A DNA stretch of 64,000 nucleotides from Yuukianura sp. NJ FZ-2021. Its lineage: Eukaryota. This document shows, piece after piece, positions 2,711 to 37,500 of this stretch (position 1 is the first letter of the stretch; each line of letters begins with the position of its first letter). The stretch spans positions 3,100,001-3,164,000 of the forward strand of contig CM102285.1 of NCBI GenBank assembly GCA_046563655.1, given 5' to 3'. The notes below the pieces were generated by a model. It ran no database searches. It saw only the letters and a program-made list of their open reading frames with translations, and was not told the DNA's origin. The position numbers and the translations under genes are program-made.

Positions 2711-5700
2711 ATGGGAGAGACGGAGACAGACAGTGAGCCGGAGGTGGGAATGCAAGTGAACAAGGAGGATGAAAGTGATGTCGAAGCAGAACAGGATTAT
2801 GCAGAATTCAAGAAAACAGGAGATACAGATAAACACAAGGGAAAGAGCGCTAAGAAGTCCAAAAATGCAGGAAAACATCGACGCGGGTCTGACAAAGGTC
2901 AAGCGATGGAAGTCGGCGGAGCATCGGAAAAGGTCAAGGTCATTGTGAGATGTCGACCTCTCAGCGAGAAAGAAATTCTTCAAGGTCATACAAGGTAATG
3001 TGTTTCCCAAACTACATTTTGATGCAAAAATGGAAAATTTTTTAAAATTAGTCAGAAATTACAAAGTCGAAACAAATAAGAGTTTTATCTTAGACTTGAA
3101 AAGAATATCACAAAAATTACTCAATTTTCATTTTACTGCAAACACGAAACTTTTTGGTCGAGTGTTCTCGTATTGATTAGAATTAAAACCAAAACACAAA
3201 CAATGTAAAAGTTTTTTTTTTGCATTTATTTTTAGAATTGTGCAAATTGCGCCAGACAATAAAGCATTGGAAGTTCATCGGCCGAATCCGTCCAGTTCGA
3301 ACTTGGTCAACGCTAAAGTGGACAAAATGTTCACATTTGATGCCGTTTATGACGAAAGGTAGTCATTTCAAACAAAATATAATCCGAGAAAGTAACTTTC
3401 TGCACGCTTTATGAAAACGGAAAGGTGTTCTTTCTGAAATTTAATCATTTTTTTTTTCGTAGAACATCACAGAGCCAGTTGTATGAAGAAGCATTCAAAG
3501 ACTTAATCGACTCCGTTCTGGAGGGATTCAATGGCACTATTTTTGCTTATGGTAAGATGCACCACTTGACCCAATTTTTAAACAAACCGCATCCCATAAC
3601 AAACCAAAAACCGAAAAACAAACGGAAATCAGAAATAAAACTCTTTTCTTAATTTTTTTCAGGTCAAACTGCATCCGGCAAAACATATACAATGGAAGGT
3701 ATTTTGGCATAAAATGTTGACCTTCCGAAAAACCTAACTTGCTCAATTCAAATACCTAAAAAATCTTAGTACTTTGAAAAAAAAAACAGAAGCCATGCAA
3801 CTTTGAAATTTTTGGTAAATTTTCAAATTTGGTTTTACAGGAATTCGTGAAATCAGAGAGCATCAAGGCGTCATTCCGAATGCCTTTCGTCACATCTTCA
3901 GCCGAATCCAAGAGTCGCCTAACATGACGTACCTCGTGAGCGCATCTTACCTAGAGATTTACAACGAAGAGGTCAAGGACCTTCTGAGTCCAAAACTCAA
4001 AATTTGCGAGCTCAAAGAAAACTCGTCCGGCGGTGGAGTTCATGTCAAAGGACTCACGAATTTCTTATGCCGCGATTTTGACGAAATCAACAACCTCATG
4101 ACGACTGGAAACAAAAACCGTTCCGTCGGAGCTACGAACATGAACGAACACAGTTCCCGATCTCACGCTGTTTTCATGATTTCGGTGGAAATGTCTGAAG
4201 AGTGGGCAAATGGCGAAACTCATGTCAAGGTCGGTCACTTGAATCTCGTCGACTTGGCCGGTTCGGAACGGCAAGGAAAAACTGGAGCAGAAGGAGATCG
4301 GTTGAAAGAGGCCGTCAAAATTAACTTGTCTTTGTCTGCTCTGGGAAACGTCATTGGTGCTTTGGCGGACGGAAAGAACGGGCATATTCCTTACAGAGAT
4401 TCGAAACTGACGAGGCTTTTACAAAATTCACTTGGGGGCAACGCTCGAACGATCATGGTGGCTACAATTGGTCCAGCCAGTTACAACTATGACGAAACTG
4501 TTGTCACTCTGCGTTATGCCAGTAGAGCCAAACGAATCAAGAACAAGCCGAAAATTAACGAAGATCCGAAAGACGCTATGCTCAGAAATTACCAGCAGGA
4601 AATTGCCAAGTTACGGTCATTACTGGAGGCAAAGATGAGCCGACAGCTAGATGGCGGCAGCTCAGATGAAGGCAGCGGAAGTGAATCTGCGCAGAAGCGA
4701 CACGGCGCAGGTTCCAGAAGCATTTTTGACAATTCTCTGCTTAAGGAACTTGAACCGTACCTTGATAGCTCTGGAGCTCCAAATGATCCGAAAGACGTTT
4801 TAAAAATTCTGACGGAAAAACGAAAACTATTACTCTCTGATACTGCTACGGTAAAAGAAGAAAAAGAAAGACTGATTTCAAAATTAGAATCAACACATCG
4901 CAAGGTGGAGCAAGCGCAGGAGGAATGCAGTGAACTTCACGCTAGGATTGAATGGTTCCAGTCAAAAGTGCTCAATGGTGACAAGAATCTTCTGGATCAC
5001 ACAAAGGAACAGCAGAAACTGATTGAACAGCGTCAGTTGGAACTGGATGAAGAGAAGGTCAAAGAAGATCAAATTAGACAGAAGATTGAAGAACATGATC
5101 TTGGTGTGGTGGAACTCAAGGAAATTGGCGGAACGATAGAATCACAGAATCATGCGGATCAAAAGAAAGTTAACAAAATGGAAGCCAAAGTTGCAAAGTG
5201 GCGGATTGAGCGTCAAGAACGCGTTGAGAAGCACAGTTACGAAGTTTCGAGAATCCAAAGATACTTTGTGCACAGTCAAAAGTAAGTTTAGAGTAATATT
5301 TTTCAAACATTAGGTTTTGGCCAATCTACGAATTACTTGAAATTTTTGAAAAAAAAAGAAGTATAACCTCAAAAGCCTTGCGTTTAAAAAAATTGAAAAA
5401 CAAATTCCAACATTTTGCGTAAAAAAAAACAAAAATAATGCACAGAGCTCTGTCATTTTGAATTTAAAAAAACTTCTAAAGTATAAAAAAAAAAGCATAA
5501 AAAGCATTTTTCAAAAGCATAAAAATGAAAGCTCCAAACAGAAGAATTTTGAAAAGCATGTATTTTTAAGATTTAATTTTTTTTTTATATAAAAATTCAA
5601 TCTCCACACATTATTGTGAGACTGAAATTTTTTAAACTGTAAAAAAAATACAATTGTGCTGAAATTTAATGCTCTTTTTTTTTGTTTGGCTTCTCAGAGA

Positions 5701-18662: not shown

Positions 18663-21600
18663 ATGGACTCCGAGGAGCTGGAAATGTGCTGGCGGAATCA
18701 TAATCAGACACTCCCACCACTGTTTGACTTCCTGCTTTCCAGTAACACATTCGTTGACGTCACATTGGCTTGTGATGGAAAGCAGCTACATGCCCACAGA
18801 CTTGTTCTTGCAGCATGCAGCGATTATTTACAGGTTTTAATATAATATTTACTATGTAGTTGTATGGCTCACACTCACACCTCAATTAAACTAACTGAAC
18901 TGAAAGTCGATTCGTTGACCCCATTCTAAATTCTCAATCTTTAGGAACTCTTACTTGACAATAAGAATCCTCATCCAATTATCTACCTGAAGGATGTCAA
19001 GTATTCGCATATGACGGCTCTTCTGTCACACATGTACCGTGGCCAGTTCAGAATTCCCAAAGAAGAACTTCCTGAACTGATACGAGTCGCAGAAGGGCTC
19101 AAAATACGAGGAATTCAAGAAATGGTAGACACGTCGTTTTTAGATGCACCCAACATCAATGCTACATCGACACTCCCTCTTCCAAACAATTCCGACCAGA
19201 ATCCGGGGAGTTCGTCCGCTCCATTAACGCTAGGCGATGGGGCAGATGAGATTCCACTCTTATTTTACACTGAGCTGCTGCAAAATTCTGATATGCATGA
19301 ACTTCTCGCTGGCAAAATCACTCAGTGCCTGGATTCTAAAAACGCAAGTAAGCCAAGCTTATCTTTTGAATTTTACGTAGTCAGTCGAGAGTGTAATTCA
19401 CGTTGCGCTAGCTCCTGGTCTGATCATGTAACTTTCTTTAGCAGCTCAAGGCGACGAGGTGGTAAAAGCTGTGAGTTCAATTGCGGAAAAGGAAATTGTC
19501 GACGCTTTCTTCAAGGACTTTTTTGAAATTGAGTTGGGAGAAGTGCAACCATCAGTTGAAAGTAATACAAATGTGCAATGTCAATTTTCTCCTCGTGCTA
19601 ATCAAACCAATCCGCAACCCAATACACCGATGATGACTCCACCTTCGCACCATGAATCAGAAACTGTACTGCTTGTAGCGAACGAAGATACGAATTTAGA
19701 GGAAACTTGCAGTACTATTCCTCTAATGACGACGGGGGACGTAGAAACAGTTTCTGTTGCTACAGAAGTGGTTTCACCTCCGGAGCCAAGCTCAGGCACA
19801 CAGAAGATTCCACACTCTCCGACTGCCACAGCATCAACGAAAAGAATGGTGAGATAATTTCTATTATTTCGTTCTTATTTCTTTAATCTTACATTGTACC
19901 TTGTCTATAGCGGACGGTATTTACTGTTTTGTACGATGACACGAAGAGCGAGGAGGGTGGTGCTGAAGTGAAGCATAGCATGAGGTCAACACCATTTCAG
20001 ACTTTGAAAAGGAAAAGAACACCGAGCGAAGCTATGAAAAACTACAAAAAACCGTGGCTAGTATCTTCTATAAAAAATGAAACTTACCCAATTGTCATCG
20101 ATACGGATACCTGGGCTAGTGTGGGGCGAAGATCTATCAGCCCGAAGTTTATTGATACTGAAATCGCAGCAGATAAAGGACTCCAGTTGTTGACAAAACC
20201 AAACGTCGGCATTGAGCGGGCGACGGTTTTAGCACGTAACTTCAAGGCGGACGTGGGGAATGAGTGTTCAACGTTTTTCACGGGTAACTCCAAGCCCGAC
20301 GACATCGGCATGGAGCGTTCAACGGTTATAGCAACTACCTTCAAGCCTAACGTCGAAAACCAACGTTCAGATACAACCGTTGTAATAAGTAACTCCAATT
20401 TTACCTCGACAAGTGAGACGACTCCTGTTCTTGCGGTGTCAAATACTAGTACCACGGAATTTTTAAACACGAGCAACACCAAACCTCTAGACATGGCCTC
20501 CAACACTTTTGGTCTACTTTCATTGACAGATTCAGAAAATCCTTTACCTGCTTCTGCAATGAAATCTCCACTTATCACACAAACACCTTCGTTTTCCCCA
20601 CCCTCACTGACGACGCCTCTGAAGAACAGTCAGAGTAGTGTCACTGGCACAAACAAATGCGAAGAACCATTACCTCCTACTACACCTCCAACATCCACTG
20701 GGAAACTGTCGACATCTCGTCGTCGATGTTTGAGTCGTATTTTAATTAACAAGGTACACACTATGCTGGAGGCCGAGGATAACCCATCGACATCCACGAC
20801 GGAATTACATGTCACTCCGACGGCACTGACGTCCTTAGAAAAATCAACGACCGACGAAAGTTTAAGAGTATCACGAAGAAAAAGTTACAGTACTCCACGC
20901 AAACGTTCTCAACACGTCAGGAACTTGTGTTTCAAAACTCCACCTAGTGCTCGAGATACTGGCAACAGTAATTCCACTCATCAGTTACCAGCATTTCAGG
21001 AGAGGCGGAGTAACAGAGAGCTGGACTTTGGAATGCCAAACATTTCCAGCACACCTATCTTGAAAACAATCCCGGAGACTAGTTTTGAGGTTGAGGTGAC
21101 TCCATATTCGTTCGAGAAGTCAAGCGTCTCATCTCCGGTAAAACAAAATCTTTGGGTTCCTCCCGCGACTCCGAGAATTTTATCACCGAAAACTCGTCAG
21201 CGACTATTTGGGTCCCCTCTCTTGCAACGTCCTCCGATACAAAAATCATCTGCTGAGCCTGCGCGTGATCCGAGCTACATCAACACACTGCGGAGACTTC
21301 TTGGGAGTCCGCTTGCACCAGGAGTATTGCCAAGTACGCCTGGAAGAACGAAAACCCCTGCCGACATTCAGTTGGATAATTCTAGGTAAAACTTGAATTT
21401 GAAGTTCGTTTCAACGGAACTACTAATCGTGAAATCATCCAACTAATTTTTACTCAAATTTTTTAAATTCTAGCGGAGAAACGACGCTGGACCCGAAGCC
21501 GATGCCTATTCCGGATGCTTTAGCTTTCCCAAAGCCGATACCAAAGCTTAATTTGGATGTTTCGCCGAAGCCAATGCCCAATCTGGATGCCTTCCCGAAG

Positions 21601-21918
21601 CCAACGCCATTGTCTACGTTTGACTCTTTTCAGAAGCCGAAACCAATGCCTCTTCCTAAGCTGAAACCAATGCCTTCGTTGGCTCCTCTTGCTAGGCCGA
21701 GGTTGGGTCCTCTCCCGAACTTAATTCCGAAGTCAGACACTCGTCCACACACCTTGTTTCGAAGAGGTTCCCGACAAAAGTTAATATCAGCATCGTCAAG
21801 AACAACTTTAGTTTCATTTGACTCTACTTTAAGAAGAAAGCCGAGTTCCGACGCAGAAGCAAAGACACTTGATGCTCCATCTTCACAAGTCCGCACTTCT
21901 TTCAAAAATGAAGATTGA
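18663..21918 (+). CDS. BTB/POZ (Tramtrack/bric-a-brac type) protein with long S/T/P-rich tail, no visible zinc finger
   Basis: Exon 18663-18833 CWRNHN...FVDVTLACDGKQLHAHRLVLAACSDY; exon from 18945 HPIIYLKDV...LLSHMYRG...LIRVAEGLKIRG; further exons ~19444-19850, 19911-21384 and 21474-21918. Confidence 0.85.
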
Positions 21919-23026
21919 TGCGGTGTAGTCTTCATCTGGTTTCTGGTTTGGGTTTAAGCTAAAACCGAATCATACGTGTAACTTACTTGTATATATTACT
22001 TATTTAGCTTGTATTAATTTCTTACATTAGATTAATAAGTACTGTAATGTGTGTACGGACACGGAGTCTTCAATTATTTGTGTAGTGTATATACCGCTCT
22101 TCTTTTCACGTACTCGGCGCGGTTTTGGTTTTGTTGTTATGTTTGTATATGATGATGGTTAATTTTTGTCAGGATAGATTTTACGGAGGGGCTTTTTAGA
22201 TTAGATTTACCTTAGATTTCTTATTAATTTAGGAACGAAAGTGTACGTGTTATATTGCTTTAGTAAAAAGTTTGACCGGACAAAATATCGACTCCACACT
22301 CCAGACGTCCAGACTAACAAGGAGTGATATGATGATGATGAGGATGACGCATCATCATCACATGCCCATAGGAATCGTTTTACTTCGGTTGCAAAGCGTT
22401 CCATGAGAAACAGTTTAAAGTTTAATAATGCTTTTGCTTTTCCTGAACAACTTGAAGCATTTTTGCATACCTTTTACGAAATGTTAACTTTGGTAACCTA
22501 AATTTGAGAAATTAAAATGCACTTAAATCCCTCGTCATGCTGTCATTGATTGACATAGACGGAATTGTGCGCTTTAATAATAAAGCTGTTTACCACAATT
22601 GTCTGCTCTTCGTGTTCCGTTAAAAAAAAGTCATGTTTAGAAGGAGGTCATTTGAAAGTTAATCCTACGTGGACGTCTACATAGGCTTTGGCTTTTGTGT
22701 GTTTTTCTTTAGAAGGCAAATTATATTGGAAGGGAGAATAAAATCATTATTTTTCAGATTCATGAACGCTAGGCACGAAAATTATGAGGGTAAAAATGGC
22801 ACAGAACAATAAATTTAATACATGAAGTGCGTACAAATATGTTGCAAAGTAAAGTTGAAATAAATGTGTTACTTCTCAAGTCAACAAATTTTTGAATGTT
22901 GGGGTTCATATTTTCAGACTTATAGAAATATACTTACCGTATTACAGAAACAAGCCCGCGTTGCATTCGTTACTATTAGGAGCGTTGATTTAAGATATGT
23001 AGTTTCATTTTCACATTGTTTGTGGA

Positions 23027-23290
23027 TATGTTGTGGCTATGTTGTGACTATGTTGTGGCTACGTTTTGACTGTTGTGACTGTTGTGGCTATGTTGTAACT
23101 ATGTTGTGGCTACGTTTTGACTATGTTGTGACTGTTGTGGCTATGTTGTGGCTATGTTGTGACTATGTTGTGGCTATGTTGTGGCTATGTTGCGGCTATG
23201 TTGTGGCTATGTTGTGACTATATTGTGGCTATGTTGTGACTATGTTGTGACTATGTTGTGGCTATGTGGTGACTATGTTGTGACTATGTT
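23027..23290. repeat. 11-bp minisatellite (G[G/A]CTATGTTGT)n
   Basis: Roughly two dozen near-perfect tandem copies are directly visible. Confidence 0.95.
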
Positions 23291-24069
23291 TGAAAATTTT
23301 ATAAAGAAAAATTATGCCAACACTACATGGACACTTGGTAAACGATTTGTGCATGACAAATAGTATAAAATTTGCAAAAATGCCACTTTTTTGGCATAAT
23401 CATAGAATATTTTGCTGAATATTTTTTATATTTTTTTTCAAGAAATATGTTTTTTAAAAGGTAAAAATATGTAATATGTAAGAAAATATGTTTTGCGCCT
23501 CTGTGTATTAATCGAGCAAGACTTTCTATTACTAGGACTGCTAACACGGGAGAATGAAGAAGCTGATTTTGCATTATATTTTAACCAAAAAACTTACCTG
23601 ATACTTTTGAACAATCACCCGTAGTTTGAATATCATCTAATCATATAAAATAAATAAAATAAATAATAAAATAAAAAATAATCATCTAAATTGAATAAAC
23701 AAATTGAAATGTTAAGGACGATACTTACTAAAATTTTCACTTCTGGAAATACACAAACAGAAAGTTTTGAGAACCACTTTTAAACACGCTGTTCAAGTTG
23801 TCTTGAAGCGTTTGTTTTTAGTTGCCCGATTTACTTTTAAGTTGCATTTTAGAACATATACGAATTGGTCTGCTATTCCCCTCATATGGTTGTAAATACC
23901 CTCGAAGAATAGGCACTTTCGGCTTCATATCGTCACAAAGACGACTACGTTAGCAACAACAAGTGGTTGTTTTGGTTTTGGTTATGTTTTTCTGCAGTTC
24001 TGGATCTGGTCTCAGATGCAGTATTTTCCTCCATGGAAATAATACGTAAATTTTTAACAGCTCTTTTTT

Positions 24070-24377
24070 TCAGTCGTTGGTGTTATTCATCTTAATTTTT
24101 TCACTGCTGTAATTATTTTACAAATTATATTTTATAAATCCTGTTTAAAGAAGTAAGCTACAGCGAAGCGTCAAACTTGTGCTATTTAGTATAAATCAAT
24201 GTCGTTGTGCTTTTTTTTTTAATTTTGACAGTACATTAGATTACTGCGCATGCATGGTTTGGATTTGGAAAACGCTTTTTAAAAACAACTTTACAAATAA
24301 TATCACTCAAAGTTGTCTTAATAAGTATAACATGGCTTCTGGATTGCGGTTATGATTAATATTTGTTTTTTTAACAG
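24070..24377 (+). promoter_or_regulatory. Putative Inr and 5'-UTR intron of the RdRP gene
   Basis: TCAGTC at 24070-24075, GTAAGC donor at 24153, and a T-rich tract plus ACAG acceptor ending 24377, 28 nt before the ATG. Confidence 0.45.
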
Positions 24378-24405
24378 TATTGGCTGATTATCTAACCAAC
24401 CGGAA

Positions 24406-26934
24406 ATGGGGCCGCCATTGATTAAAATCATTTTATCAAATCAGGATGACGATGTGTATGGAATATTTGACCGGAACGGTTCGGGAGCTGTCGGGCAGCC
24501 GCGGGAGTTCGTACTTTCAGTTGAGTGTGATTATAATCCCAGAACTGGTGGTCTTACGACAAGCGTTTCGCCTCTGGAGTACAAAGGAGTCGAAAATCGG
24601 GTAACCACTAATCATGGCGGGCCAGCGAATTTTATTCACGTATCTTTCCAACGGCTGAGTCAAGCAGGATTTGCTCAAAAGCAATTCAATGCCGAAAAGA
24701 AGATTGAGGAGATACTGACGTCTGGAATAACTGTCCAACATCAAGATGAAATACGCACGTTCATCTTTTGTGGACACAGCAACAGCCAGTTGAAAAGTCG
24801 AAGCTGCTTTTTCTACAAAGCAGAGTGTGCTAACGATGTCACTGGGATCTTAACCGGATTCGGGAACTTTGCTCAAATCAAAACTGTAGAAAAGTATGTC
24901 AAGAGAATCGGACTCTTATTTTCTAAATCAACTGTGGATACACAACTTCAACCAGAGATGACATTGGACATTCCAGACGTTGAAAGAAATGGCCATATTT
25001 TCACTGATGGATGTGGACTCATTTCTACATCATTTGCCAAAACTCTGACCGCGCTAATCGGGAAAGAGAAAAACGATCTTCCAAAGAACTACATTCCAAG
25101 CGTCTTTCAAATTCGATACAAAGGATATAAAGGAATCTTGATGGTGGTCTCCAATGAATTCATCCACGATCAGGCAATCTCAAATCAAAGCCTAATTTCC
25201 AAGATTTGGCGAAGTATTGGCGGTACTGGCAGGATAGTTTTGTTTCGAAACTCGATGAAGAAGTTTGAAGGGTGTCCAGATAATACGTTTGCAGTTTTGG
25301 ATTACTCGAAACCATATTTTGCTGGAGCTCTAAATGCAGAAATTGTTAACTTGCTTTCAAGTAATGGCATTCCAAATGATGTTTTACTCAAGAAACAAGG
25401 GCGGTACTTGAACTATATCCGCAGTGTGGATTACGATAACCGGGAAAGTGTCGTCCAGTTTTTGAAGTTGGTGCGTCGCTACGATCTGGTTGCGAAACTT
25501 GCAGCAGTTGAAGATATACAGTACATTCCTACTTGGATCAAAGGCAAGGTTCAAGAAATGAAACGTCAAGAGTTGTCCAAGTCACTCGATGTCAGTGGAA
25601 TGGCGCGCGTTCATATTCAAATTCCAAATTCCCGCCTTTTGTTAGGCGTTTGCGACGTTTCTGGAAAACTACTCGAGGGGCAATGCTACGTTCGAATTCT
25701 CTCAACAGACTTGACGCATAGCATTCCCATAAGCGGGCAGGTCATAGTGACTAGGAATCCATGTCTTTTCCCCGGAGACATTCAACACTTCATTGCTCAA
25801 GGTAACATTCCAGAATTGGCTCACTTGTCTGACTGCATTGTGTTTAGTACTCAGGGGAAAATGCCGGCAGCATCTACTCTAAGTGGTGGTGACTTGGATG
25901 GAGACAAGTTCTATGTTTCTTGGGATCCTGATTTAATCAAAATGGAATCCAAGGGGGCCCTGGACTACTCTTTATTGGCTCCTCGAACTACTGTTGTTCC
26001 TTCTATCACTTGGGAAATGAGGGTTATGTACTTTGCTCACTATGCAACTTCACTGGGCAACATAATATCACTTTACTGGAAATGGACCAATGCCCGTCCG
26101 ACACAGAGAGCCAACTGCTCCGAGTGCAAACAACTTAGCAAATTGTATGCAAGATGCGTCGATGGTGAGAAAGTCCAAATCCCAAAGGCATTACGCAACC
26201 CGCCGCCCAGCACCAATGATGCTGATATTCTGAAAGTACTGAAACAAAACATCAAGGACATTGTGTTTGGGACGGGAAGAAATTTTCATGACTTTCTTAA
26301 TGCGACTGATGTCATTCCCGAGAGCTTGCCACATGGCGACATTCAAGGCGACGAGCCGTTTCTACAAGATCCTCCTCAACCCGGGAGCAAACGGCAACTT
26401 ATCAACAGAAGTTTAACTGCAATTCGTCAGTTCATATTCACTTTTGGAGTTTGGATGATGCTGCTGTCAATCCCGGGTGTACTATCATGTTATTGGAATT
26501 TGGAGACCATGCGGGAGGTTGGCGGCAGTATACTTTTGGTTGTGGGCGATACAATTGAACAGGTTTTGCTTACGAGGGTAGACGACACAACCATTGGCAG
26601 ATGGATGATACTTTTTGTGGTCATTTGTAGTTGCATTTATGGCCTTGCTATACATGTGACAAAATGGCTGAAGGACTCTGTTAGGGCCTTGGAAATAAGA
26701 ATTCTTGGACATCATTGGAGGCGTGGCTGGATTGGCAAGACGTTCAGATTTGTGAAGAGACTGCTTGTTCAGATTTTCGGCAGAAGAAGGAATTTGGCCA
26801 GATATACCAATGCTCAAGTTGGACAGCGTTTCTACAACTCAGCATCTGTGTATGATGATTTGAACGATTTTATAAACAAATATCAACTACTTCCAATAAT
26901 AACCTTTGCGTTGCTTACCTACCTATTAGGTTAA
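24406..26934 (+). CDS. Cellular RNA-dependent RNA polymerase (RdRP/RDR family), intronless CDS, with hydrophobic C-terminal extension
   Basis: 842-aa ORF with GHSNSQLKSRSC, KRIGLLFS, FTDGCGLIS, PSVFQIRYKGYKG, SRLLLGVCD, VTRNPCLFPGD, and the catalytic SGGDLDGDKFYVSWD (DLDGD at 25891-25905). Confidence 0.95.
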   Translation: MGPPLIKIILSNQDDDVYGIFDRNGSGAVGQPREFVLSVECDYNPRTGGLTTSVSPLEYKGVENRVTTNHGGPANFIHVSFQRLSQAGFAQKQFNAEKKIEEILTSGITVQHQDEIRTFIFCGHSNSQLKSRSCFFYKAECANDVTGILTGFGNFAQIKTVEKYVKRIGLLFSKSTVDTQLQPEMTLDIPDVERNGHIFTDGCGLISTSFAKTLTALIGKEKNDLPKNYIPSVFQIRYKGYKGILMVVSNEFIHDQAISNQSLISKIWRSIGGTGRIVLFRNSMKKFEGCPDNTFAVLDYSKPYFAGALNAEIVNLLSSNGIPNDVLLKKQGRYLNYIRSVDYDNRESVVQFLKLVRRYDLVAKLAAVEDIQYIPTWIKGKVQEMKRQELSKSLDVSGMARVHIQIPNSRLLLGVCDVSGKLLEGQCYVRILSTDLTHSIPISGQVIVTRNPCLFPGDIQHFIAQGNIPELAHLSDCIVFSTQGKMPAASTLSGGDLDGDKFYVSWDPDLIKMESKGALDYSLLAPRTTVVPSITWEMRVMYFAHYATSLGNIISLYWKWTNARPTQRANCSECKQLSKLYARCVDGEKVQIPKALRNPPPSTNDADILKVLKQNIKDIVFGTGRNFHDFLNATDVIPESLPHGDIQGDEPFLQDPPQPGSKRQLINRSLTAIRQFIFTFGVWMMLLSIPGVLSCYWNLETMREVGGSILLVVGDTIEQVLLTRVDDTTIGRWMILFVVICSCIYGLAIHVTKWLKDSVRALEIRILGHHWRRGWIGKTFRFVKRLLVQIFGRRRNLARYTNAQVGQRFYNSASVYDDLNDFINKYQLLPIITFALLTYLLG

Positions 26935-27832
26935 CTCCAGAAAACGGTTTAATGTCCCTCGCAAATTGTTCGTTGGCGGTCGGACGTAAGAAATAATAAT
27001 AGTCAATATTTGGTAAATTACTACTTCAGATATTTGTACATTAATTAGCTATTGACTTAAATAGTAACATCTACTTTACGATAATATACGATACATACGA
27101 TATATTACAAGAATATATTAGAACATATACTATAATATGCACGACATTTGCACTATAATATTTACGACATATACTACATACAATATGAACGACATATTCC
27201 ACAAAATTCACGATATGTATTATCTAGATATAATAGTTATAAATGATCATATCATTGAAAATAGTAACGCATCATAAAAAACTGAAATTATTCTAAAAAA
27301 AAAGATATGGCACACAACTTAAGGCGGCAGTGCCTACTTACGGAAGGAAAATGATAAGCGGCGGTTATGGCATGGCTTCGAGAGGATCTCCCACCGTAAT
27401 TGTCTGTTTGAAATTACAATGTTGTGTACACATTTTTCAAAATTATATTTAAAAAGAAATGTAGATAATAATACACAAAATTTGGTAGTTTTGGGTAGTG
27501 GGTTTCTTCCATCTCGTCATAGTACTACTTGGATGAGTTTTTTTTTCAAACATTCACCAAATTAGATATAATATCTTGAGCGCACAATTTTTTTTATAGC
27601 TTTTCAAAATTTTTGTAGAATACTACAATCAGTCGAAATCTGACTGATAACTTTTTTTTAGATTATTTTTAGTTAAGTTGTAATTAGTTAGGTTGTATTT
27701 GGATTAATCATTAATGAAACCAGGAATATACTTTAATAGAAAGGTACTTTATTAATATATACTTGCAAGTATTTACAAATTGAAAGGTCGAGTCAATCCT
27801 TTCTTACGACAGACGTAAGTTCTACGAAACAA

Positions 27833-28007
27833 GGGAATTTCCCAAGGATTTGTTTTCTCGTCAGCGCATTATAACGACAAATTGTTGCAAGATTGAGATT
27901 GACACATTTCCTTGAATGCGTTAGAAGATTCATTAGAAATGCGTTAATTTCAAACTAAAAGTAAGAATTAGGGAACTCTATGTTGCACGAGTTAAATCAT
28001 ATAAATA
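27833..28007 (+). promoter_or_regulatory. NF-kB-type site and TATA box upstream of the secreted peptide gene
   Basis: GGGAATTTCCC at 27833-27843 and TATAAATA at 28000-28007. Weaker kB-like sites occur at 27971 (GGGAACTCTA) and ~28049 (GGGAAAGTTC). Confidence 0.65.
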
Positions 28008-28093
28008 GTTTGATGCTAGTTGTGCTAGGCATCACTTCTCAATTAACTGGGAAAGTTCGGAGATACTTGTGGAAACTAAAGGTTACAGTCAAA

Positions 28094-28417
28094 ATGAAGT
28101 CGGTGTTGCTTGTTGCATTCGTCTCCTGCTGTCTGCTGGTTTGTTTCCCGGGTCAAAGTTCAGCAATGTGGAAGAACGCTGCAAAGAATCTTGGAAATGC
28201 CGCCAAGAACGTCGGTGACCAAAGTTCTCTTCAAAGTACTCTGCAGAATGGATATGACCAGGCCAAAAATCCACAACAAACTCCACAAACTACTGGAAAG
28301 GTGATGGGCCTACTCGCTCAGCAACGTCAACAATCACAGCAACCGGCACAGTCTTCGTCGCAGGCTCAACCGAAGGGACATTCTATCACAAAATTCCTTG
28401 GAGGAGGTGGGAAGTGA
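28094..28417 (+). CDS. Small secreted Gln-rich peptide (107 aa), candidate immune effector
   Basis: AAAATG start, signal peptide MKSVLLVAFVSCCLLVCFPGQSSA, TATA upstream and AATAAA at 28527. Confidence 0.8.
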   Translation: MKSVLLVAFVSCCLLVCFPGQSSAMWKNAAKNLGNAAKNVGDQSSLQSTLQNGYDQAKNPQQTPQTTGKVMGLLAQQRQQSQQPAQSSSQAQPKGHSITKFLGGGGK

Positions 28418-28833
28418 TTTTGGCGGGAAACTAAACTTAGGTTCAAAATATTTCATGTTCGTATCAAATACGTTGAAATTGGCATTGTACGTTTAACTTT
28501 GAATCAATTGGTTGACGCTTTGAATTAATAAAACATTTTGGAAATTTATCCAGTCAGTAGTATGATGACGACAGTTTATAAAATTTCAGTTTACGTCGGT
28601 TTTCTTAGAACATTTCTTCATTTGAAATGATTTTTGATGAAACTGCGAAATGACTCAAGTTCATGATACTACCACAACCACATCCCCAAGTTTCCAGCGT
28701 TGTCCTGGTTTGCTCAATTTCCTTTCTTCATTTAAGCATTTAACGTTAGTTTCATATATCATTCAACCGAATTTTGCAAGAAAAGGTTTGAAAAAATTAA
28801 CGGTTTGGTTTGTTGAATTAAAGTTTGGAAACA

Positions 28834-29301
28834 ATGGTTAGATTCTACTTTGAACGAATTTCAATATTCTTGATTCTTTTGATTCCACTAACGCTGGGTG
28901 AAAACGCGGGAGGATTCGGATCTTACGGCTCAATTTGCGACCGGGACCAACAGTGCAACACCAACGCTTACTTGATCTGCGACTCTCAGAAGCGGCAGTG
29001 CGAGTGCTTTAGTTCTTACGGAGAAGTATTTGAAGGAGGGAAATGTCGTCATAAGCCCGATGTGAGGTGCGTCATAGCCGAGGATCGCTGCACGGAGCAC
29101 GCGGAGTGCGTGGATGAAGGTGATGGATCTGGACAACGATCGACCAGAGGATCATGCACATGCACCAAGCGATCAGTGTACGATAGACGAGCTGAAAAGT
29201 GTATTAGTGTGGCTACGTCCTCCACAATTTCAAATTTGAAATTCCCACTGTTGCTGCAATTATTCCTCTGCTCAAAACTATTTTTTGTTTTAATTAAATA
29301 A
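28834..29301 (+). CDS. Intronless secreted/GPI-type cysteine-rich protein, paralog of the 1243 gene
   Basis: Signal-like ISIFLILLIPLTLG, C-x5-C-x7-C-x6-C-x-C module plus a second Cys module, and a hydrophobic C-terminus. Confidence 0.8.
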   Translation: MVRFYFERISIFLILLIPLTLGENAGGFGSYGSICDRDQQCNTNAYLICDSQKRQCECFSSYGEVFEGGKCRHKPDVRCVIAEDRCTEHAECVDEGDGSGQRSTRGSCTCTKRSVYDRRAEKCISVATSSTISNLKFPLLLQLFLCSKLFFVLIK

Positions 29302-31056: not shown

Positions 31057-31536
31057 TACAAAATATAATACTATAAAATATCGGCGACCGCAGCTTTGTT
31101 ACATTAGCATTTGCTAAAATTTTACCCCAATCCATATTTATTAACAGAAGACTCTGAGCTTGCAACACATTGTGATTGCTTGGTTTAGAATTAGATGAAT
31201 TATGAATTTAATACTGTCTAAACCGTCCTTTCAATCTGTTATACTGTTTTTTTTTTTTAAATAAAGTAAGAATTCTGCAGTTTGCATTTGAAGGATTCCA
31301 TTTCTCTATTTTTGTTTGAAAAGAATGTATTCACACTTAGAATTTTACAAGTTTTATTGGCGGAACTGAAGTGTATAGCCGGAAAGTAAGTTTTTAAAAC
31401 ATTGGTTACATAATAAAGTTAGCTACAATAGCTGTTCTGTCATCAAGATGAGAAGTTTACATGTTGTGGGGCGTAAAGTCTAAAGATCCCCAAGGAGTGT
31501 GATTGGTAGTGATTTACGATTCAAAGAATTTAGTCA

Positions 31537-34500
31537 TCATTGATCTGCCGCATGTCTTTTTAGCATGATGACTGAACCTGCAGCATGCGAAGGTTGGCTT
31601 GGCGTTGGCGCAGGGTGCGGACCTTGCGCCATTTGTGGCATGATGACAGGAACTGAGCCATACATAGGTTGATTTATGTTCGGTACTGGCGGGGGGATTG
31701 GAGGTCGACCATAAAAAGATTGACCTGGCGCCAATGATGCATTGTCCACTTGCCCGTCTGAACCAATCATTTGGTAACGAATGTTATCTGTGACTGGCCG
31801 CTGTGGACTTGAATTCGGGTTGTACGGTGTCGGTAAAACAAGCGGATCATTCCACATAGGTTGTGGTGGTGGCACACCCTGCTGCATCATATTCATAACG
31901 GGTTGATCCGGTGTAACGGCTTGATCTTTCAAGAAGACGCAGAGAGCGCTGGAGTCTCGCGCCAAAAGTGTTCTAGTTTCTCCGAATTCCTTGACTGCTC
32001 CTTTCTCCATTACAATAATATGAGTGCACGCTCGAATTGTTGCGTTCGAGCTGGTAACGATTAGAGTTGTTCGCTTTTTAAAAACATTGTCCAACGTTGT
32101 CAACAACACCTGTTATATAAATCTTTTTTTTACATTAAAGTTTTGAAACATAACTCAAACTCAGAATTTTTAAGAATTTATGTTCACCTTCTCCTCTTCT
32201 GCATCCAGTAGAGCCATGATGTCTTCAAGTAATAATAGTTGCGGCGGTGACCTGCATACAATATGAGCAAGATTGTCGTATTTCCTTAATTGGAATTGAT
32301 TTAGTACTATTACCGACATTACATCACGTTGATCATAATCATAAGTATACCAGTTTTACCTAATGATTGCCCGAGCAATAGCAATGGCTTGTCTTTGAGT
32401 CGGGTTTAAGTTCTTTCCGTTTTCTCCACACTTCGTATTGAAGCCCTAAATTTCATACGATTTAAGCGTTGAAATTAAACCAATGATGTGATGTTGGATT
32501 TAGTTTTTATACGCTTTATCATTTTAGAAAAGAAGTTAGAAAATGTGCTTACTTCTGGTAGTTCGTCAATGAATTTCTTTAAATTCGCATCTGTCGCAGC
32601 ACGTTGAATTAAATCATGCAAACCCGTCATGTCGCCATGGTAGCCAAATTTAATGTTATCGTCTACGGTGATGTCAAACAATTTTGGTTCAGATGGAACA
32701 TAGCCAATGTTGCTTCTGAGATGTTTTATACTCCAATCCCGTACATCAATGCCATCTACTTTCTAATAGCAGAAAGTTTACATTGCAAAGCTTGCTTCTG
32801 GCATAATTTAAATTCCGATTTTTAACGACGACTCAATTTATGTTCTTACCACCCAACCAGTTTGAGCATCGCAGAATCGCAGCAATAACGCTAGAATTGT
32901 TGTCTGTCCACTTCCTGGAGGACCCACTGCAAATTAAGTACAATATGAAATGCACATAGCTATGCATAGAATTTATTTATAAAGTACGTGAGACTATTAG
33001 ATTTTACTGGATTTAAGCTTCACTACGTAGCTCACCGATTCCAACTAAGCTTTTTGCGGGGATTCTGAAAGTTGCATTCTTCAGTTCGGTTTCGTCATTA
33101 AGGGGATCCTTAAACCACACGCTTTGGAACTCCACTTCGCCGTTAAACGCTCCTTTACTATGTTTGAAGTCATCTGCTGAATCAGTTAGAGGTTTTAGGT
33201 CAATCAGGCTAAAAATGGCGTCTCCGGAACTTTTAGCCTTGAAAAACTCTGGAATGAAGCTTGTTGCTTGTCCGACGCTTAGGATTCCAAAAGTAAGGAC
33301 GAAGAAAATGCTAGAAACAATGACACAAATGCCAATGAGGTTGCATTGTTGTAAATTTGACGTTCAAAGAGACGTACGAAAACAAGTCAGACACGGCGAG
33401 AATTCCATGTCGAAGCAACTCTGCTCCAACCGAGAACGCAGCTCCAAATATGAAGAACATGAAGCATTCTGAGGTAGCGTACACCAGTGAGTACCATACA
33501 GCTCTATTATAACCGTCGCTAAACATATAATATACTACATATATTTGCATGTACATATAATATACCCAACCTCTGTCTACCTTTTAATATTATATGTATG
33601 TGTAATATATTATTAGTTATGCTAATACGTTAATTAAGTTAAAGTTGTTGAAGGCTTAAACTTACAGAAGCGCAGGGTAGAGAAACTTTTCCGCTTGTAC
33701 ACAACCTGCATATGCGTCACACTTTGTCTGAATGGCCTCAATTCCATTGATTAAAGAAGTGGTAAGCTATGATACACCATAGTAAATACAAATTAAATTC
33801 AAATCAACACTAATTACGTTACGTTATGAACTACGTTACGTAGTTGAATTTATTTTCATTAGAGTAGACACGTTTCGTACCCGTAAGACTTCTAATACTT
33901 TTAGGTTATACGGGGCAAATTATGTATATTACAAATTTTTGTACACTGTTGTGTACAAAAATTTGCATAGCAGTGTGTTATCAGACAAAGCCATAACGTT
34001 AAAACAATAAATATTTTCAGCGACTAAACGCAAATTCTTATTATTACAAATTTGTATGAAGAAATCATAAGCTGTTACTTACATCCACAATTCCTTGTCG
34101 ATTTGCAAATAGTTTAACTTGTGAGCCCTTCAGAACACGAGCAAGTGTGGAGAAGCAAGACACAAGAATTGGAATTGTCAAAAACGCCACAGCAGCAATT
34201 TCCCAACTGAAGAATAGTGTAATCACAAGCCCAGTGATCAACGTCATAATGGCATTCACAGCAGTTGCCAACCGAGGACCCATCGCCTAGAATACAGGAG
34301 TCAAAATATTCTCAACTACGCAGGTATCAAATCTAGTGAAAAATTATAATCATAATTGACAATTTTTTACTAACGTTTTTAATAACAGGTACATCCGAAG
34401 ACAAGCGGGTATACAGACCTCCAGGGGAATTTTCTTTGTTTTCAAACCAGCGTACGTGCTGTTGTAGAATAGAGTTGTAGCTGGCAATGCGTAGGCGTGA

Positions 34501-37500
34501 TCCAAGGTCTTCGGCAAAATAACCGGTGAAAATATTTCTAATGGCAAAGCCAACGGCCGCCAATGTAGCTAATCCCAACAGCACCTCCACCCAGTTAATT
34601 CCGGACGACAACAAATTTTGTCTTGGTCCAATAAACAACTACAAGCATAAACTTTCTACAGGTTTTGCAACGTTTGAGCAACATTCATAATGTGTTAGGC
34701 TTACATCCAGAATTTGACCCAAAGAAAGCGCTAGAAGCGGTATAACTAGACCACTCAGTATGCATCCAACTATTCCGAGGTACCACAATCTTCTTGACTC
34801 AAATGGCATCAGTTTTAGTAATTTCCGGATAAAGGCCATGGAATCGAATATATTTTTCATGGATGCTCCCATTAGTACTTGAAACCGGTCAACAGTTTCG
34901 TCTTCATCCCTCTCTGTTTCTACACGATAAACTAATTGAGTTGGAAACATCTTGTTAAAGTCACCACAGATCCGTCTCAGTTCCTCAGGAGTGCCTTTCT
35001 CTGTCACGCATCCATTCTATTAAAAACATGTGTCAAAGAAACTAATGTGGATTAGCGTGGTATGGAAATGCATTAAATGTAAAACAGACAATTACTAATA
35101 AGAAAAAAAAACATTTTTGACTTTAGTAAGAAGAATCGACCAAATTTCACCTTCAAAAAATAAATGTAGTCGCATGATTCAAATACTTCTGGGGGTTTGT
35201 AGTCGACAACAATGGTAGCAGTGGTGGTTTGTCGGCATTTTTTCAAAGTTTGAAGAATTTTACATGCATCGCTAAGTTTAAGTGCTGACAAGGCTTCACG
35301 CAAGATGAGTACTTTGGGTTTCGAGATAATGCACTTCGCTATAAGAATTTTGATTCTGAAACAAAAATAGAACGAACCGTAATTAGATCAGTAAAGATTA
35401 GATTTGTATCCAGCTAATTAAGGTTCAAATTGATCTTTGAATGATATCTACATTTACACAGTTTTTACAGTTTGTTTTATACGACGACTAAAAGTAGAGT
35501 GCCTTACCGCACATCCAACGGAAACAGTGCTGACGCGGTGGAGTCATATTTCTAAGAAACGTTCAGGTAGTTTGTATTATTATATGTACCACAGTTATCC
35601 AATATCAATGTACGGTGCAAGTTGCAGAAGCGCTTTACATACTATCTATATATATGTAAGATCTATATATGTATATAATTGGACGATAGTATAAATTTAA
35701 CTTACATTGTCGAGCCCTGCTATGTATTTGTCGAGCAAGACAATTTGAGCGGCCTTCTCAACATCGTGGAAGGTGACATTTTTATTAAAAGAACGAATGT
35801 TTTCAAATATTGTCGTGTTAGCCAGCGTCTAGAAATGTGGAACAAAATTTAGCAAGAGATTTTCTAACAATTGTTTTTAAAATTTGTTGTGTCGTGTTAC
35901 ACTATTTCGGTCCACAACGGCAAACTGCTTACGAACCCATCGCACATTCTATTACACGATTTATATATAACAAAACGTATTAATACCACATACCAAAATT
36001 CTGTTATGAGACAAAGGCATAAACAATTGTAACGCACCATGGTGGTTATATCGTGTTCATCAAGTTTGATTACACCGGATTGTGGATCATATAAGCGCAG
36101 CATGAGTCTGACGAGTGCGCTTTTTCCAGCTCCGTTTTTCCCGACGATCGCTGCATTTATTTTGGGCATAGTAAGTTGGTTATTCCCGGGCTTTCCTTAT
36201 ATGTTTTCACTAAAAAATTTTATGCGTAAAACATTTACCAAAAAGCCCTTTCCCTGGTACTTCAAAATTCAATTCGTTGAGGACCAGTTTCTCCGCCATG
36301 GTCGGGTAAGCAAAAGCTACGTTGCTGAAGTTAATTTTTCCAGTAAAGCCTTTTGGACACAAACCTGTAATGGCAATGGCAATAAATCTAGGTAGAGATT
36401 GTGGCAAATATATTTCATGCGGTGTAACTATAAGAATCATCTTGTATAAAAATTTACCGCTGTTGCAGAGTGGTGATATACAACAAGTGTTGTACTTTTT
36501 ACAGTTACGTCAAATTAAGTTCAAGGAAAACCTACCTGATGTGCTGTATGGATCAATTTCAGGTATTGAATCCAAAACAGTTCCTACAAGTCGGTATGAC
36601 GAATAAGCTGAAGCGATTTCACTCAGGTTGGGCAGTAGTGAGAAAATGGCAAATACAGAAATTGTGAGACTAAAGAAAACTGTGTAAATTTCTCCTGGAC
36701 TGATGACGCCTTCGTGCAAAAGGTTGACTGCGTACCAGAGTGCGACTGCGTAGAAGACGTAAATCAAGAAGTACATTCCACCAGTACCAAGTCCAATTAT
36801 AACTTCTTTGTGTTTGGCAGCCGCGGTTCCATACGATAGTGCTTTCTCGTATCGCTCTAACTCTCCTCTCTCTTCACCAAAAGCAGCTACAGCCTGTATA
36901 TTCCTTATCCCTTCAACACAGATTTTTCCGGCTATGACACTTTGTTGTTGTGCTTCAGTTGATGCATTGCTCATTTTCTAGTTTTCAAATAAAGTTAAGT
37001 TTTTAAAAGTTTTTTTAAAGTTTTTAATTTTTAAAAAAATCTAGAATTTTGAAAGTTCAACTTACTTTCCAGACAAGCATTAGCTTTGTGAATACAAGTG
37101 GCGCTGATCCTAGCAACACCAAGGTCAGTTTTGTGTTGGTGAGGAGACCGATTCCGGCACCAAAAAGTGCAATTATGCTGTACTCAATTACAAGCACAAA
37201 TTTTTGACCAACTCCTTCACGAAATCGTTCACAGTCACTGGAAAAATCAAAAGATATAAATTTAACACTACACACTTATAGTATTTATGCAAGAAAAAAA
37301 ATTTGGGTTTTCTTTTTAAAGATGAACATTTTCCCGAGTTTCAAATTTCAAATTTCGTCAACTTTGTCGCGTAATTTCTTACTCTGTCATTTTCATAACA
37401 AGGTTTCCCACCGATCTAAAGCTGAACCACGACATTTCTTGCCTTTGCAGCTGATAGATATACTTTTGTCTGATTCGGTACAATTGGTTTTCAGCCATCC

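What the first reader, a model, noticed from the sequence alone, without database searches (positions are those of the whole stretch)
26428..26931. RdRP ends in up to three hydrophobic segments: a possible membrane-anchored RdRP
Seen: after the polymerase region and an acidic/Pro linker come FIFTFGVWMMLLSIPGVLSCYW, WMILFVVICSCIYGLAIHV, an Arg/Trp-rich stretch (HHWRRGWIGKTFRFVKRLL...GRRRN) and a terminal LLPIITFALLTYLLG. The cellular RdRPs I know are soluble. Inference: a helicase-bearing C-terminus was replaced by a membrane anchor, which could place the enzyme on ER or mitochondrial membranes where RNA viruses replicate. I do not know of a described case of this architecture.
Basis: partly seen in the sequence, partly recalled or inferred. 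Interest (0 to 1): 0.9.

Follow-up and report, generated by a model that had tools for sequence, protein, structure and literature searches.

The report
Cellular RdRP with hydrophobic membrane-type tail
An animal-type genome carries a single-exon gene for an RNA-silencing RNA polymerase that ends in a fast-evolving, strongly hydrophobic tail instead of the helicase its fungal relatives have, so the enzyme may be tethered to a membrane, which has not been described for this family.

Summary
ORF 24406-26934 (+) encodes 842 aa. Residues 63-595 are a cellular RdRP (PF05183, E 1.6e-100, DLDGD intact). The last 168 residues hold the protein's only three uncharged hydrophobic stretches (25, 20 and 17 aa). 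Chance does not explain this: such segments occur 0.12 times per 168 aa in six-frame translations of the window, and 222 open codons beyond the last homologous residue have P about 7e-9.

The loop charges fit the positive-inside rule (K+R 2 / D+E 6, then K+R 16 / D+E 5). Diverged copies in sequencing runs keep the frame (all listed tail indels are net multiples of 3) and the same stop codon.

The tail has no sequence homologue (0 hits in 1.84 billion proteins). A 66-74% identical but frameshifted relative (L001) lacks it. Its sister P0002 has only the same layout, and those two have the most hydrophobic C-termini of 121 proteins. AlphaFold2 is confident for the core and not for the tail.

No TM predictor or RNA run was available, so membrane insertion and location are inferred. 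On a quick tree the gene nests among fungal RdRP-helicase fusions, which favours loss of the helicase part.

Verdict: probably a membrane-tethered RdRP, a new variant of a known kind, unproven.

The parts
24123..24152 (+). 3' end of an upstream non-coding (5' UTR) exon; only its last 30 nt were seen
   Evidence: A contig of run X1 carries these 30 letters directly in front of window 24378 (table 7). The string matches the window exactly at 24123-24152.
24153..24377 (+). 225-nt GT...AG intron in the 5' UTR
   Evidence: It is the stretch skipped in the joined form above. It starts GTAAGC and ends TTTTTTTAACAG. An in-frame TGA at 24385-24387 lies between the acceptor and the ATG (read).
24406..26934 (+). 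Single-exon coding sequence, 842 codons plus TAA
   Evidence: The start context is gaaATGg.
24592..26190 (+). Cellular RdRP domain (residues 63-595)
   Evidence: Pfam PF05183, E 1.6e-100. PDB relatives are RDR2 7eu0/7roz (E 4.5e-43) and QDE-1 2j7n (E 5.5e-15). AlphaFold2 pLDDT is about 85-98 over 32-625.
25891..25905 (+). Catalytic DLDGD (residues 496-500)
   Evidence: D496, L497, D498, G499 and D500 are invariant in the 48-sequence alignment.
26203..26427 (+). Pro-rich, mildly acidic linker (residues 600-674). Homology to relatives fades here, around residues 619-689.
26428..26493 (+). Hydrophobic segment H1 (residues 675-696), inside an uncharged run of 25 aa (675-699)
   Evidence: KD 1.86. 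Simple-sum dG +1.58. Uncharged-run scan.
26494..26598 (+). Acidic loop (residues 697-731): K+R 2, D+E 6
   Evidence: The listed variants here are non-conservative: L699S/F, V712D, D726G, D727G.
26599..26658 (+). Hydrophobic segment H2 (residues 732-751), the strongest in the protein
   Evidence: KD 2.28 and dG -0.38. That is higher than any window in the 120 homologues (their maximum is 2.12, in P0002). Variants M734V and S742I keep it hydrophobic.
26659..26886 (+). Strongly basic loop (residues 752-827): K+R 16, D+E 5
26725..26784 (+). Arg/Lys/Trp-rich amphipathic helix (about residues 774-793)
   Evidence: It has the joint-highest hydrophobic moment in the protein, 0.62. It is predicted helical in both AlphaFold2 runs at low confidence.
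26887..26931 (+). C-terminal hydrophobic segment H3 (residues 828-842), running to the last residue
   Evidence: KD 2.11 over 15 aa and dG -0.02. It is the most hydrophobic C-terminus of the 121 proteins; P0002 is second. A diverged copy reads LPISVIFVLL...TYLFG-stop, with the same stop codon (my reading of the loose-end consensus).

Best explanation
This is a real, probably expressed, single-coding-exon gene in an animal-type genome. It encodes a catalytically intact cellular RdRP whose last ~170 residues form a lineage-specific membrane anchor.

Proposed topology (inferred):
- The polymerase domain (1-674) sits in the cytosol.
- H1 crosses outward.
- The acidic loop 697-731 is luminal.
- H2 crosses back.
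- The very basic loop 752-827 is cytosolic. Its amphipathic Arg/Trp helix lies on the membrane surface or contacts RNA.
- The short H3 inserts at the extreme C-terminus.

Because H1 emerges with ~170 codons still to translate, co-translational ER targeting is the default guess. The organelle is not determined.

Proposed function (inferred): the ancestor's helicase-bearing C-terminal half engaged templates. Here it was exchanged for a tether that confines complementary-strand/dsRNA synthesis to a membrane surface.

Shown: the RdRP identity, the open and frame-conserved tail, the hydrophobicity and the charge pattern. Inferred: insertion, topology, organelle and biological role.
For: (1) RdRP identity. 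PF05183 scores 338 bits, the DLDGD motif is invariant, and there are matches to RDR2 and QDE-1.

(2) The tail is coding.
- It has 0 stops in 168 codons while every other frame is closed, with P(open) 7e-7 to 7e-9.
- Its G+C is about 0.42, like the core (about 0.43) and unlike the 3' flank (about 0.30).
- Among diverged copies laid from runs X1, X2 and X5, all listed indels inside the tail are net multiples of three: -1/-2 in one contig, -3, -3 and -6, +2/+1.
- Of the five listed after the stop (+8, -1, -1, -3, +1) only one is.
- The stop codon is kept in a copy about 90% identical.

(3) Membrane-type features.
- The protein's only three uncharged hydrophobic runs (25, 20 and 17 aa) are all in the tail.
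- H2 exceeds every hydrophobic window in the 120 homologues.
- Chance expects 0.122 such segments per 168 aa.
- Loop charges are -4 then +11, which fits the positive-inside rule with a cytosolic N-terminal domain.
- The three listed substitutions inside H2 and H3 are hydrophobic-to-hydrophobic or towards hydrophobic.

(4) The sister sequence P0002 (SH-aLRT 100) ends with the same layout: a hydrophobic/basic helix, a basic spacer, then a hydrophobic C-terminus. P0001 and P0002 rank 1 and 2 of 121 for C-terminal hydrophobicity (2.11 and 1.95; the next is 1.35).

(5) Hint of expression. An X1 contig joins 24152 to 24378 across a canonical GT-AG intron. Overlapping X1 contigs run 26281-27051 through the tail and stop codon, with 0-2 differences and no joint.
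Against: - No dedicated TM predictor could be run.
- AlphaFold2 gives pLDDT below 50 for 674-842 with the alignment and does not even draw H1 and H2 as helices. The tail alone is all-helical but at mean pLDDT 57, pTM 0.27.
- KD >= 1.6 alone is not specific: 31 of the 120 homologues have such a window, mostly in a presumably soluble region.
- The tail has no homologue: 0 hits at E <= 1e-3 in 1.84 billion representatives.
- Tail-to-tail similarity with P0002 is not significant: 224 of 2000 shuffles, and 80 of 2000 for the last parts, reach the observed score.
- L001, 66-74% identical in the polymerase, shares nothing after residue ~619.
- Listed substitutions in the tail are 5 synonymous to 10 non-synonymous, close to neutral, against 13 to 12 in the core. 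Only the best-supported variants were shown (226 more SNVs and 10 more indels were not).
- Run X1 is labelled 'DNA?'. The intron-less joint could therefore be a DNA retrocopy rather than a transcript.
- H3 is only 15-17 aa long.
Confidence: 0.55

Rival explanations
1. The tail is translated but is not a membrane anchor. Its hydrophobic helices pack into a soluble helical bundle, an oligomerisation module or a condensate-forming region. Alternatively, only the basic amphipathic helix touches membranes or RNA peripherally.
For: 31 of 120 homologues have KD >= 1.6 windows in a region that is presumably soluble. Reading four of them (P0106, P0120, P0092, P0007) showed ordinary buried segments or read-through. 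The tail alone is predicted all-helical. The amphipathic helix 774-793 has the top hydrophobic moment.
Against: H1, H2 and H3 contain no charged residue over 25, 20 and 17 aa, unlike the fungal windows, which carry E, R or K. H2 is more hydrophobic than any homologue window. AlphaFold2 does not pack the tail onto the core or into a confident bundle. The loop charges follow the positive-inside rule.
Confidence: 0.2
2. The tail is a young, nearly neutral extension. It was left when the ancestral middle region and helicase were lost by truncation, frameshift or read-through. It is translated but has no function, and its hydrophobicity is a by-product of T-rich second codon positions.
For: No homologue of the tail exists. 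L001 has a different sequence after residue ~619, and its downstream frames are also hydrophobic. Listed tail substitutions are 5 synonymous to 10 non-synonymous. T at codon position 2 is 0.40.
Against: The frame is open for 222 codons beyond the last homology (P about 7e-9). Diverged copies keep the frame and the stop codon. The composition matches coding sequence and not the flank. Two segments of this strength are expected only about 0.007 of the time. The sister P0002 shows the same C-terminal layout.
Confidence: 0.15
3. The locus is one copy of a multi-copy, decaying or selfish element (retrocopies, or cargo of a mobile element) and makes no functional protein.
For: Many diverged copies exist: 131 contigs of X2 lay on 2.8 kb at 80-100% identity. 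The coding sequence has no intron. L001 has two frameshifts. An intron-less joined form occurs in a run labelled 'DNA?'.
Against: This copy is intact over 842 codons and keeps all 40 invariant columns of the alignment, as that list is built from the query's own residues. There are no terminal inverted or long direct repeats around it, and no viral contig relative was found. The core shows 13 synonymous to 12 non-synonymous listed changes and no listed indel. Flanking genes are ordinary host genes.
Confidence: 0.05

Closest known systems
Fungal RdRP-SF1 helicase fusion proteins (Fgrdrp5 type of Fusarium graminearum; PMC11237814, passages read)
   Same: They are the closest polymerase domains, at 35-43% identity. 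Every hit in the top 120 that carries an organism name is fungal (genus names judged from my own knowledge). 23 of the 120 carry helicase Pfam domains. The query nests among them on a quick tree.
   Different: The query has no helicase domain and no detectable remnant of the ~400-aa middle region (hhalign probability 0.43%). It ends instead in hydrophobic segments, sits in an animal-type genome and has no intron in its coding sequence.
Solved cellular RdRPs: Arabidopsis RDR2 (7eu0, 7roz) and Neurospora QDE-1 (2j7n)
   Same: Same family by sequence (E 4.5e-43 and 5.5e-15) and the same DxDGD catalytic motif.
   Different: To my knowledge those enzymes are soluble, nuclear or cytoplasmic, with N-terminal RRM or slab extensions. 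Nothing in them matches the tail (0 PDB hits at E <= 10).
Tail-anchored viral RdRp, hepatitis C virus NS5B
   Same: Functional analogy only: an RNA-copying polymerase held on the cytosolic face of ER-derived membranes by a C-terminal hydrophobic segment.
   Different: It has an unrelated right-hand fold, a single TM and viral origin. The query has up to three segments and a double-psi beta-barrel type polymerase.
Membrane-anchored small-RNA biogenesis enzymes on the mitochondrial surface, such as the trimmer PNLDC1 and Zucchini/MitoPLD
   Same: The precedent is a normally soluble RNA-processing enzyme family gaining a TM anchor, so that small-RNA production happens on an organelle surface.
   Different: They are different enzyme families in the piRNA pathway. 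No RdRP is known among them.
Expanded, divergent RdRP families in animals (bdelloid rotifers, PMC7943196; survey of animal RdRPs, PMC6396948; passages read)
   Same: Animal genomes can hold many diverged RdRP copies of unclear origin. Here many copies at 80-99% identity appear in the runs.
   Different: Neither paper's main text mentions membrane or transmembrane features (0 occurrences). Their supplements could not be read.

Membership tests
Eukaryotic cellular RdRP (PF05183) | Pfam RdRP domain above the gathering score | tested here: met
   338 bits against a cut-off of 23.8, residues 63-595.
Eukaryotic cellular RdRP (PF05183) | Catalytic DxDGD loop | tested here: met
   GGDLDGDKF at 494-502. 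D496, D498 and D500 are invariant in 48 sequences.
Eukaryotic cellular RdRP (PF05183) | Sequence relationship to structurally solved RdRPs | tested here: met
   RDR2 at E 4.5e-43 and QDE-1 at E 5.5e-15.
Eukaryotic cellular RdRP (PF05183) | Double-psi beta-barrel catalytic fold | not tested
   The core is modelled with pLDDT about 85-98, but no fold comparison was run.
Eukaryotic cellular RdRP (PF05183) | RNA-templated RNA synthesis | not testable with these tools
   This needs an enzyme assay.
Fungal RdRP-helicase fusion (Fgrdrp5 type) | Polymerase domain groups with this clade | tested here: met
   Top hits. Quick tree: it sits in a 45-row group with the fusion proteins, SH-aLRT 100. That tree used 48 of 121 proteins and was rooted on 2 distant rows.
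Fungal RdRP-helicase fusion (Fgrdrp5 type) | Conserved middle region after the polymerase | tested here: not met
   hhalign of residues 596-842 against 40 fungal C-terminal regions gave probability 0.43%, E 0.14.
Fungal RdRP-helicase fusion (Fgrdrp5 type) | C-terminal SF1/UPF1-like helicase domains (PF13086, PF13087, PF13604, PF13245) | tested here: not met
   None in the ORF. No helicase-like sequence lies downstream; the weak P-loop hits near 32.9 kb belong to an ABC transporter gene on the other strand.
Alpha-helical integral membrane protein | At least one uncharged hydrophobic stretch of about 19 aa or more with KD >= 1.6 | tested here: met
   H1 is a 25-aa run (KD 1.86) and H2 a 20-aa run (KD 2.28).
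Alpha-helical integral membrane protein | Loop charges obey the positive-inside rule for one consistent topology | tested here: met
   Loop 697-731 has K+R 2 and D+E 6. Loop 752-827 has K+R 16 and D+E 5.
Alpha-helical integral membrane protein | TM helices called by a trained predictor (DeepTMHMM, Phobius, TOPCONS) | not testable with these tools
   No such tool was available. AlphaFold2 is uninformative here, with pLDDT below 50.
Alpha-helical integral membrane protein | Biochemical membrane integration | not testable with these tools
   This needs fractionation or carbonate extraction.
Classical tail-anchored protein | Hydrophobic segment at the extreme C-terminus and no N-terminal signal sequence | tested here: inconclusive
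   H3 runs to the last residue (KD 2.11 over 15 aa) but is only 15-17 aa long. No hydrophobic window occurs before residue 669.
Classical tail-anchored protein | That segment is the only TM segment | tested here: not met
   H1 and H2 lie upstream. The sister P0002 comes closer to this pattern.

The most novel reading that the evidence does not exclude
An animal lineage has turned a fungal-type RdRP-helicase into a small, fast-evolving family of integral-membrane RdRPs. Amplification of silencing RNAs (dsRNA synthesis) would then be physically tethered to the cytosolic face of an organelle. That would be a cellular counterpart of the membrane-bound replicases of RNA viruses. It could let the enzyme act where viral or transposon RNAs concentrate, or could protect bulk cytosolic mRNA from being copied.
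Probability: 0.35. Interest if true: 0.75.

Novelty: new variant of a known kind. Interest (0 to 1): 0.5.

Why it matters
Cellular RdRPs are treated as soluble components of RNA-silencing granules or of the nucleus. How they are kept away from ordinary mRNAs, and how they find their templates, is unresolved. A natural RdRP with a built-in membrane anchor in place of a helicase would give a direct test of whether spatial tethering can replace helicase-based template engagement. It would also add an unreported architecture to the family. The gene is short, has no intron in its coding sequence and keeps its catalytic motif, so localisation and activity tests with and without the tail are straightforward.

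Tried and rejected
- Whole-genome search for paralogues: no genome is held for this window.
- RNA evidence: no RNA holder listed. All five holders are labelled 'DNA?'.
- ESM Atlas with residues 660-842: no usable hit.
- Earlier findings of the scan: nothing by place, sequence or words.
- Viral contigs: no relative.
- Exhaustive phmmer with residues 600-842: 0 hits.
- Word-indexed search with the P0002 tail: it found only itself.
- PDB sequence search with the tail: 0 hits at E <= 10.
- Tail as a remnant of the fungal middle region: rejected (hhalign probability 0.43%).
- Tail shared with L001. By eye I thought frame +2 of L001 resembled H1 and H2. Shuffle tests rejected this: 359 of 500 shuffles reach the score, and 44 of 500 for the other frame. 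DNA similarity ends at window ~26263.
- Hydrophobic windows in P0106, P0120, P0092 and P0007 as possible further TM-tailed RdRPs: rejected after reading the sequences. They are buried segments of the conserved middle region or probable intron read-through.
- Codon-usage log-likelihood of the tail under core codon usage: uninformative, negative in all frames.
- Terminal repeats of a mobile element around the gene: none. Only an 11-nt tandem array lies upstream.
- Helicase exons downstream: the weak recurrent hits at ~32.9 kb (-) are the P-loop of an ABC transporter gene.
- AlphaFold2 on the full protein and on the tail alone: the tail stays at low confidence, so no fold search was made.
- Literature: three searches listed nothing, by title and abstract, on a membrane-anchored cellular RdRP. 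A fourth search led to the Fgrdrp5 paper.
Full report
**What is there**

The window is eukaryotic and looks animal.
- It holds a kinesin-II (KIF3B-like) exon at 3924-5285, whose best full-length matches are animal proteins.
- It holds a ROCK/MRCK-type Rho-binding plus PH exon at 60222-60836.
- An ABC transporter gene lies on the minus strand at ~31.5-37.5 kb.
- No whole genome is held for the window.

The finding sits at the end of the longest ORF of the window, 24406-26934 (+), 842 codons.
- Residues 63-595 match the cellular RdRP family PF05183 (E 1.6e-100, 338 bits against a cut-off of 23.8).
- The catalytic GGDLDGDKF is present, and D496/D498/D500 are invariant in a 48-sequence alignment.
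- Solved relatives are plant RDR2 (E 4.5e-43) and Neurospora QDE-1 (E 5.5e-15).
- AlphaFold2, run with that alignment, models residues 32-625 at pLDDT about 85-98.

**Gene structure**

- An in-frame TGA at 24385 precedes the ATG, and a polypyrimidine-AG acceptor ends at 24377.
- A contig of run X1 carries 30 letters directly in front of 24378. They match window 24123-24152 exactly.
- This defines a 225-nt GTAAGC...AACAG intron in the 5' UTR, and the coding sequence is a single exon.
- X1 is labelled 'DNA?'. The joined form is therefore a hint of a spliced transcript, but a DNA retrocopy is not excluded.
- Overlapping X1 contigs cover 26281-27051 with 0-2 differences and no joint. In that data the tail is contiguous with the polymerase and with the 3' flank.

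**The observation**

The quoted peptides and coordinates are exact.

Hydrophobicity:
- Kyte-Doolittle 19-aa peaks are 1.86 (676-694) and 2.28 (734-752). No window reaches 1.4 before residue 669.
- The last 15 residues average 2.11.
- A simple-sum membrane-insertion scale (values recalled from memory) gives +1.58, -0.38 and -0.02.
- The three segments lie in uncharged runs of 25, 20 and 17 aa, the only such runs in the protein.

Chance does not explain this:
- Stop-free six-frame translations of the rest of the window contain 63 equally hydrophobic segments in 86,577 aa, i.e. 0.122 per 168 aa. None of 57 long windows holds two.
- Only the polymerase frame is open across the tail: 0 stops, against 5-12 in each of the other five frames.
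- With flank composition, 222 open codons beyond the last homologous residue have P about 7e-9.
- Tail G+C (about 0.42) equals the core (about 0.43) and drops to about 0.30 right after the stop.

**Is the tail maintained?**

Laying contigs of three runs gave many diverged copies. The runs were X1 and X2 (one sample of organism A) and X5 (organism B, another study). In X2, 131 contigs lay on the stretch: 44 at 99% identity or more, 44 at 95-99%, 31 at 90-95% and 12 below 90%.
- Every listed indel inside the tail is a net multiple of three: -1 and -2 in one contig, -3, -3 and -6 in one contig, and +2 and +1 in four contigs.
- Of the five listed just after the stop (+8, -1, -1, -3, +1), one is a multiple of three.
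- A copy about 90% identical reads LPISVIFVLL...TYLFG and stops at the same codon (my reading of the loose-end consensus).
- At the amino-acid level constraint looks weak. Listed substitutions are 5 synonymous to 10 non-synonymous in the tail, against 13 to 12 in the core.
- The three changes inside H2 and H3 (M734V, S742I, A835V) preserve hydrophobicity. Those in the H1-H2 loop do not.
- Only the best-supported differences were printed (226 more substitutions and 10 more indels were not shown), so these counts are indicative only.

**Relatives**

- The top 120 of 373 hits are 33-44% identical and cover at most 74% of the query. None reaches the tail.
- Every hit with an organism name is a fungus (genus names judged from my own knowledge). 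23 of the 120 carry SF1-helicase Pfam domains.
- This is the architecture described for Fgrdrp5 of Fusarium graminearum (PMC11237814, passages read).
- The query has no helicase.
- hhalign of residues 596-842 against 40 fungal post-polymerase regions finds nothing beyond the first ~25 residues (probability 0.43%).
- No helicase exon lies downstream.

I built a quick IQ-TREE on 48 of the 121 proteins, using polymerase columns only and rooting on two distant rows.
- The query is joined with P0002 (SH-aLRT 100). Both are long branches, and the tool warns that such joins can be false.
- The pair sits inside a 45-row group whose three subclades all contain long helicase-type proteins.
- Loss of the middle and helicase part is therefore the parsimonious reading, not a proven one.

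**Is the tail shared?**

- At the sequence level it is not. Exhaustive phmmer of residues 600-842 against 1.84 billion representatives gives 0 hits.
- The P0002 tail finds only itself.
- The two tails do not align better than shuffles: 224 of 2000, and 80 of 2000 for the last parts.
- L001, a metagenome contig 66-74% identical over residues 50-619 but carrying two frameshifts, shares neither protein nor DNA similarity after ~26263.
- At the level of layout there is a parallel. P0002 ends in a hydrophobic/basic helix, a basic spacer with an FYN motif, and a hydrophobic C-terminus.
- P0001 and P0002 have the two most hydrophobic C-termini of the 121 proteins: 2.11 and 1.95, with the next at 1.35. 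Many of the others are truncated models.
- The P0002 tail was seen identically on a second contig.

**How it most likely works**

The loop between H1 and H2 is acidic (K+R 2, D+E 6). The loop between H2 and H3 is very basic (K+R 16, D+E 5). With a cytosolic polymerase domain this fits the positive-inside rule:
- N-terminus in,
- H1 out,
- acidic loop luminal,
- H2 in,
- basic loop cytosolic,
- H3 out.

The basic loop contains an amphipathic helix (about 774-793) with the joint-highest hydrophobic moment of the protein (0.62). It could lie on the membrane surface or bind RNA.

H1 emerges with about 170 codons still to be made, so co-translational ER insertion is the default guess. Nothing here decides the organelle.

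I infer that the lineage swapped a helicase-based template-handling module for a membrane tether. RNA copying would then be confined to a membrane surface.

AlphaFold2 neither supports nor contradicts this. The tail is below pLDDT 50 in the full model. Folded alone it is all-helical, but with mean pLDDT 57 and pTM 0.27.

**Rivals**

- A soluble or peripheral helical tail (0.2).
- A young, nearly neutral leftover extension (0.15).
- A non-functional copy of a multi-copy element (0.05).

These are weighed in their own sections of this report.

**Novelty**

- I found no description of a membrane-anchored cellular RdRP. Full-text searches listed nothing relevant by title and abstract.
- The survey of animal RdRPs (PMC6396948) has 0 occurrences of 'membrane' in its main text.
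- The bdelloid RdRP expansion paper (PMC7943196) has 0 occurrences of 'transmembrane' in its main text.
- Their supplements, which might list domain architectures, could not be read.
- The nearest analogies are the tail-anchored HCV NS5B polymerase and TM-anchored piRNA-processing enzymes. Both are recalled, not checked here.

I rate it a new variant of a known kind. It is of moderate interest because the decisive evidence is still missing: TM prediction, transcripts and localisation.

Noticed in passing
window 22985-23319: A tandem array with an 11-nt period (at least 22 registered copies of TGTTGTGGCTA/TGTTGTGACTA-like units) lies about 1.1 kb upstream of the RdRP gene. It creates a spurious 117-aa ORF at 22864-23217.
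   Followed up: no
run contigs laid on window 24300-27100 (X1, X2, X5): The RdRP gene exists as many diverged copies (80-99% identity) in the sample of organism A and in a second organism B. These could be a paralogue family, haplotypes or a pooled population. The copy number could not be determined from contigs.
   Followed up: partly
L001 621-2391: A metagenome contig encodes a 66-74% identical RdRP broken by two frameshifts (frames 3, then 2, then 1). Its downstream sequence is unrelated but also hydrophobic when translated. It is either a pseudogene or a low-quality assembly.
   Followed up: partly
window 24406-26934 compared with its hits: Every named relative in the top 120 is fungal and no named animal RdRP appears, although the flanking genes are animal-type. 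The possible explanations are horizontal transfer from fungi or an unsampled animal RdRP lineage. Only a quick tree without animal RdRPs was made.
   Followed up: partly
window ~31500-37500 (-): A multi-exon ABCB-type ABC transporter gene. ABC_membrane matches at 36513-36977 (E 2.5e-16) and ABC_tran at 35900-36196 (E 1e-9). Its P-loop explains weak recurrent tblastn hits from the fungal helicase regions.
   Followed up: yes
window 27980-28417 (+) and 28825-29301 (+): Two short ORFs just downstream of the RdRP gene have signal-peptide-like starts. One is Gln-rich and the other Cys-rich and EGF-like by eye. Neither has a Pfam match.
   Followed up: partly
window 50486-51196 (-): An ORF with a weak match to DNA/RNA non-specific endonuclease (PF13930, E 2e-6, 28.5 bits against a cut-off of 27).
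   Followed up: no
window 19929-21918 (+): Long Ser/Thr/Pro-rich ORFs (486 aa and 138 aa) lie upstream in a region of higher G+C (0.45) and have no Pfam match. They may be exons of a low-complexity protein.
   Followed up: no
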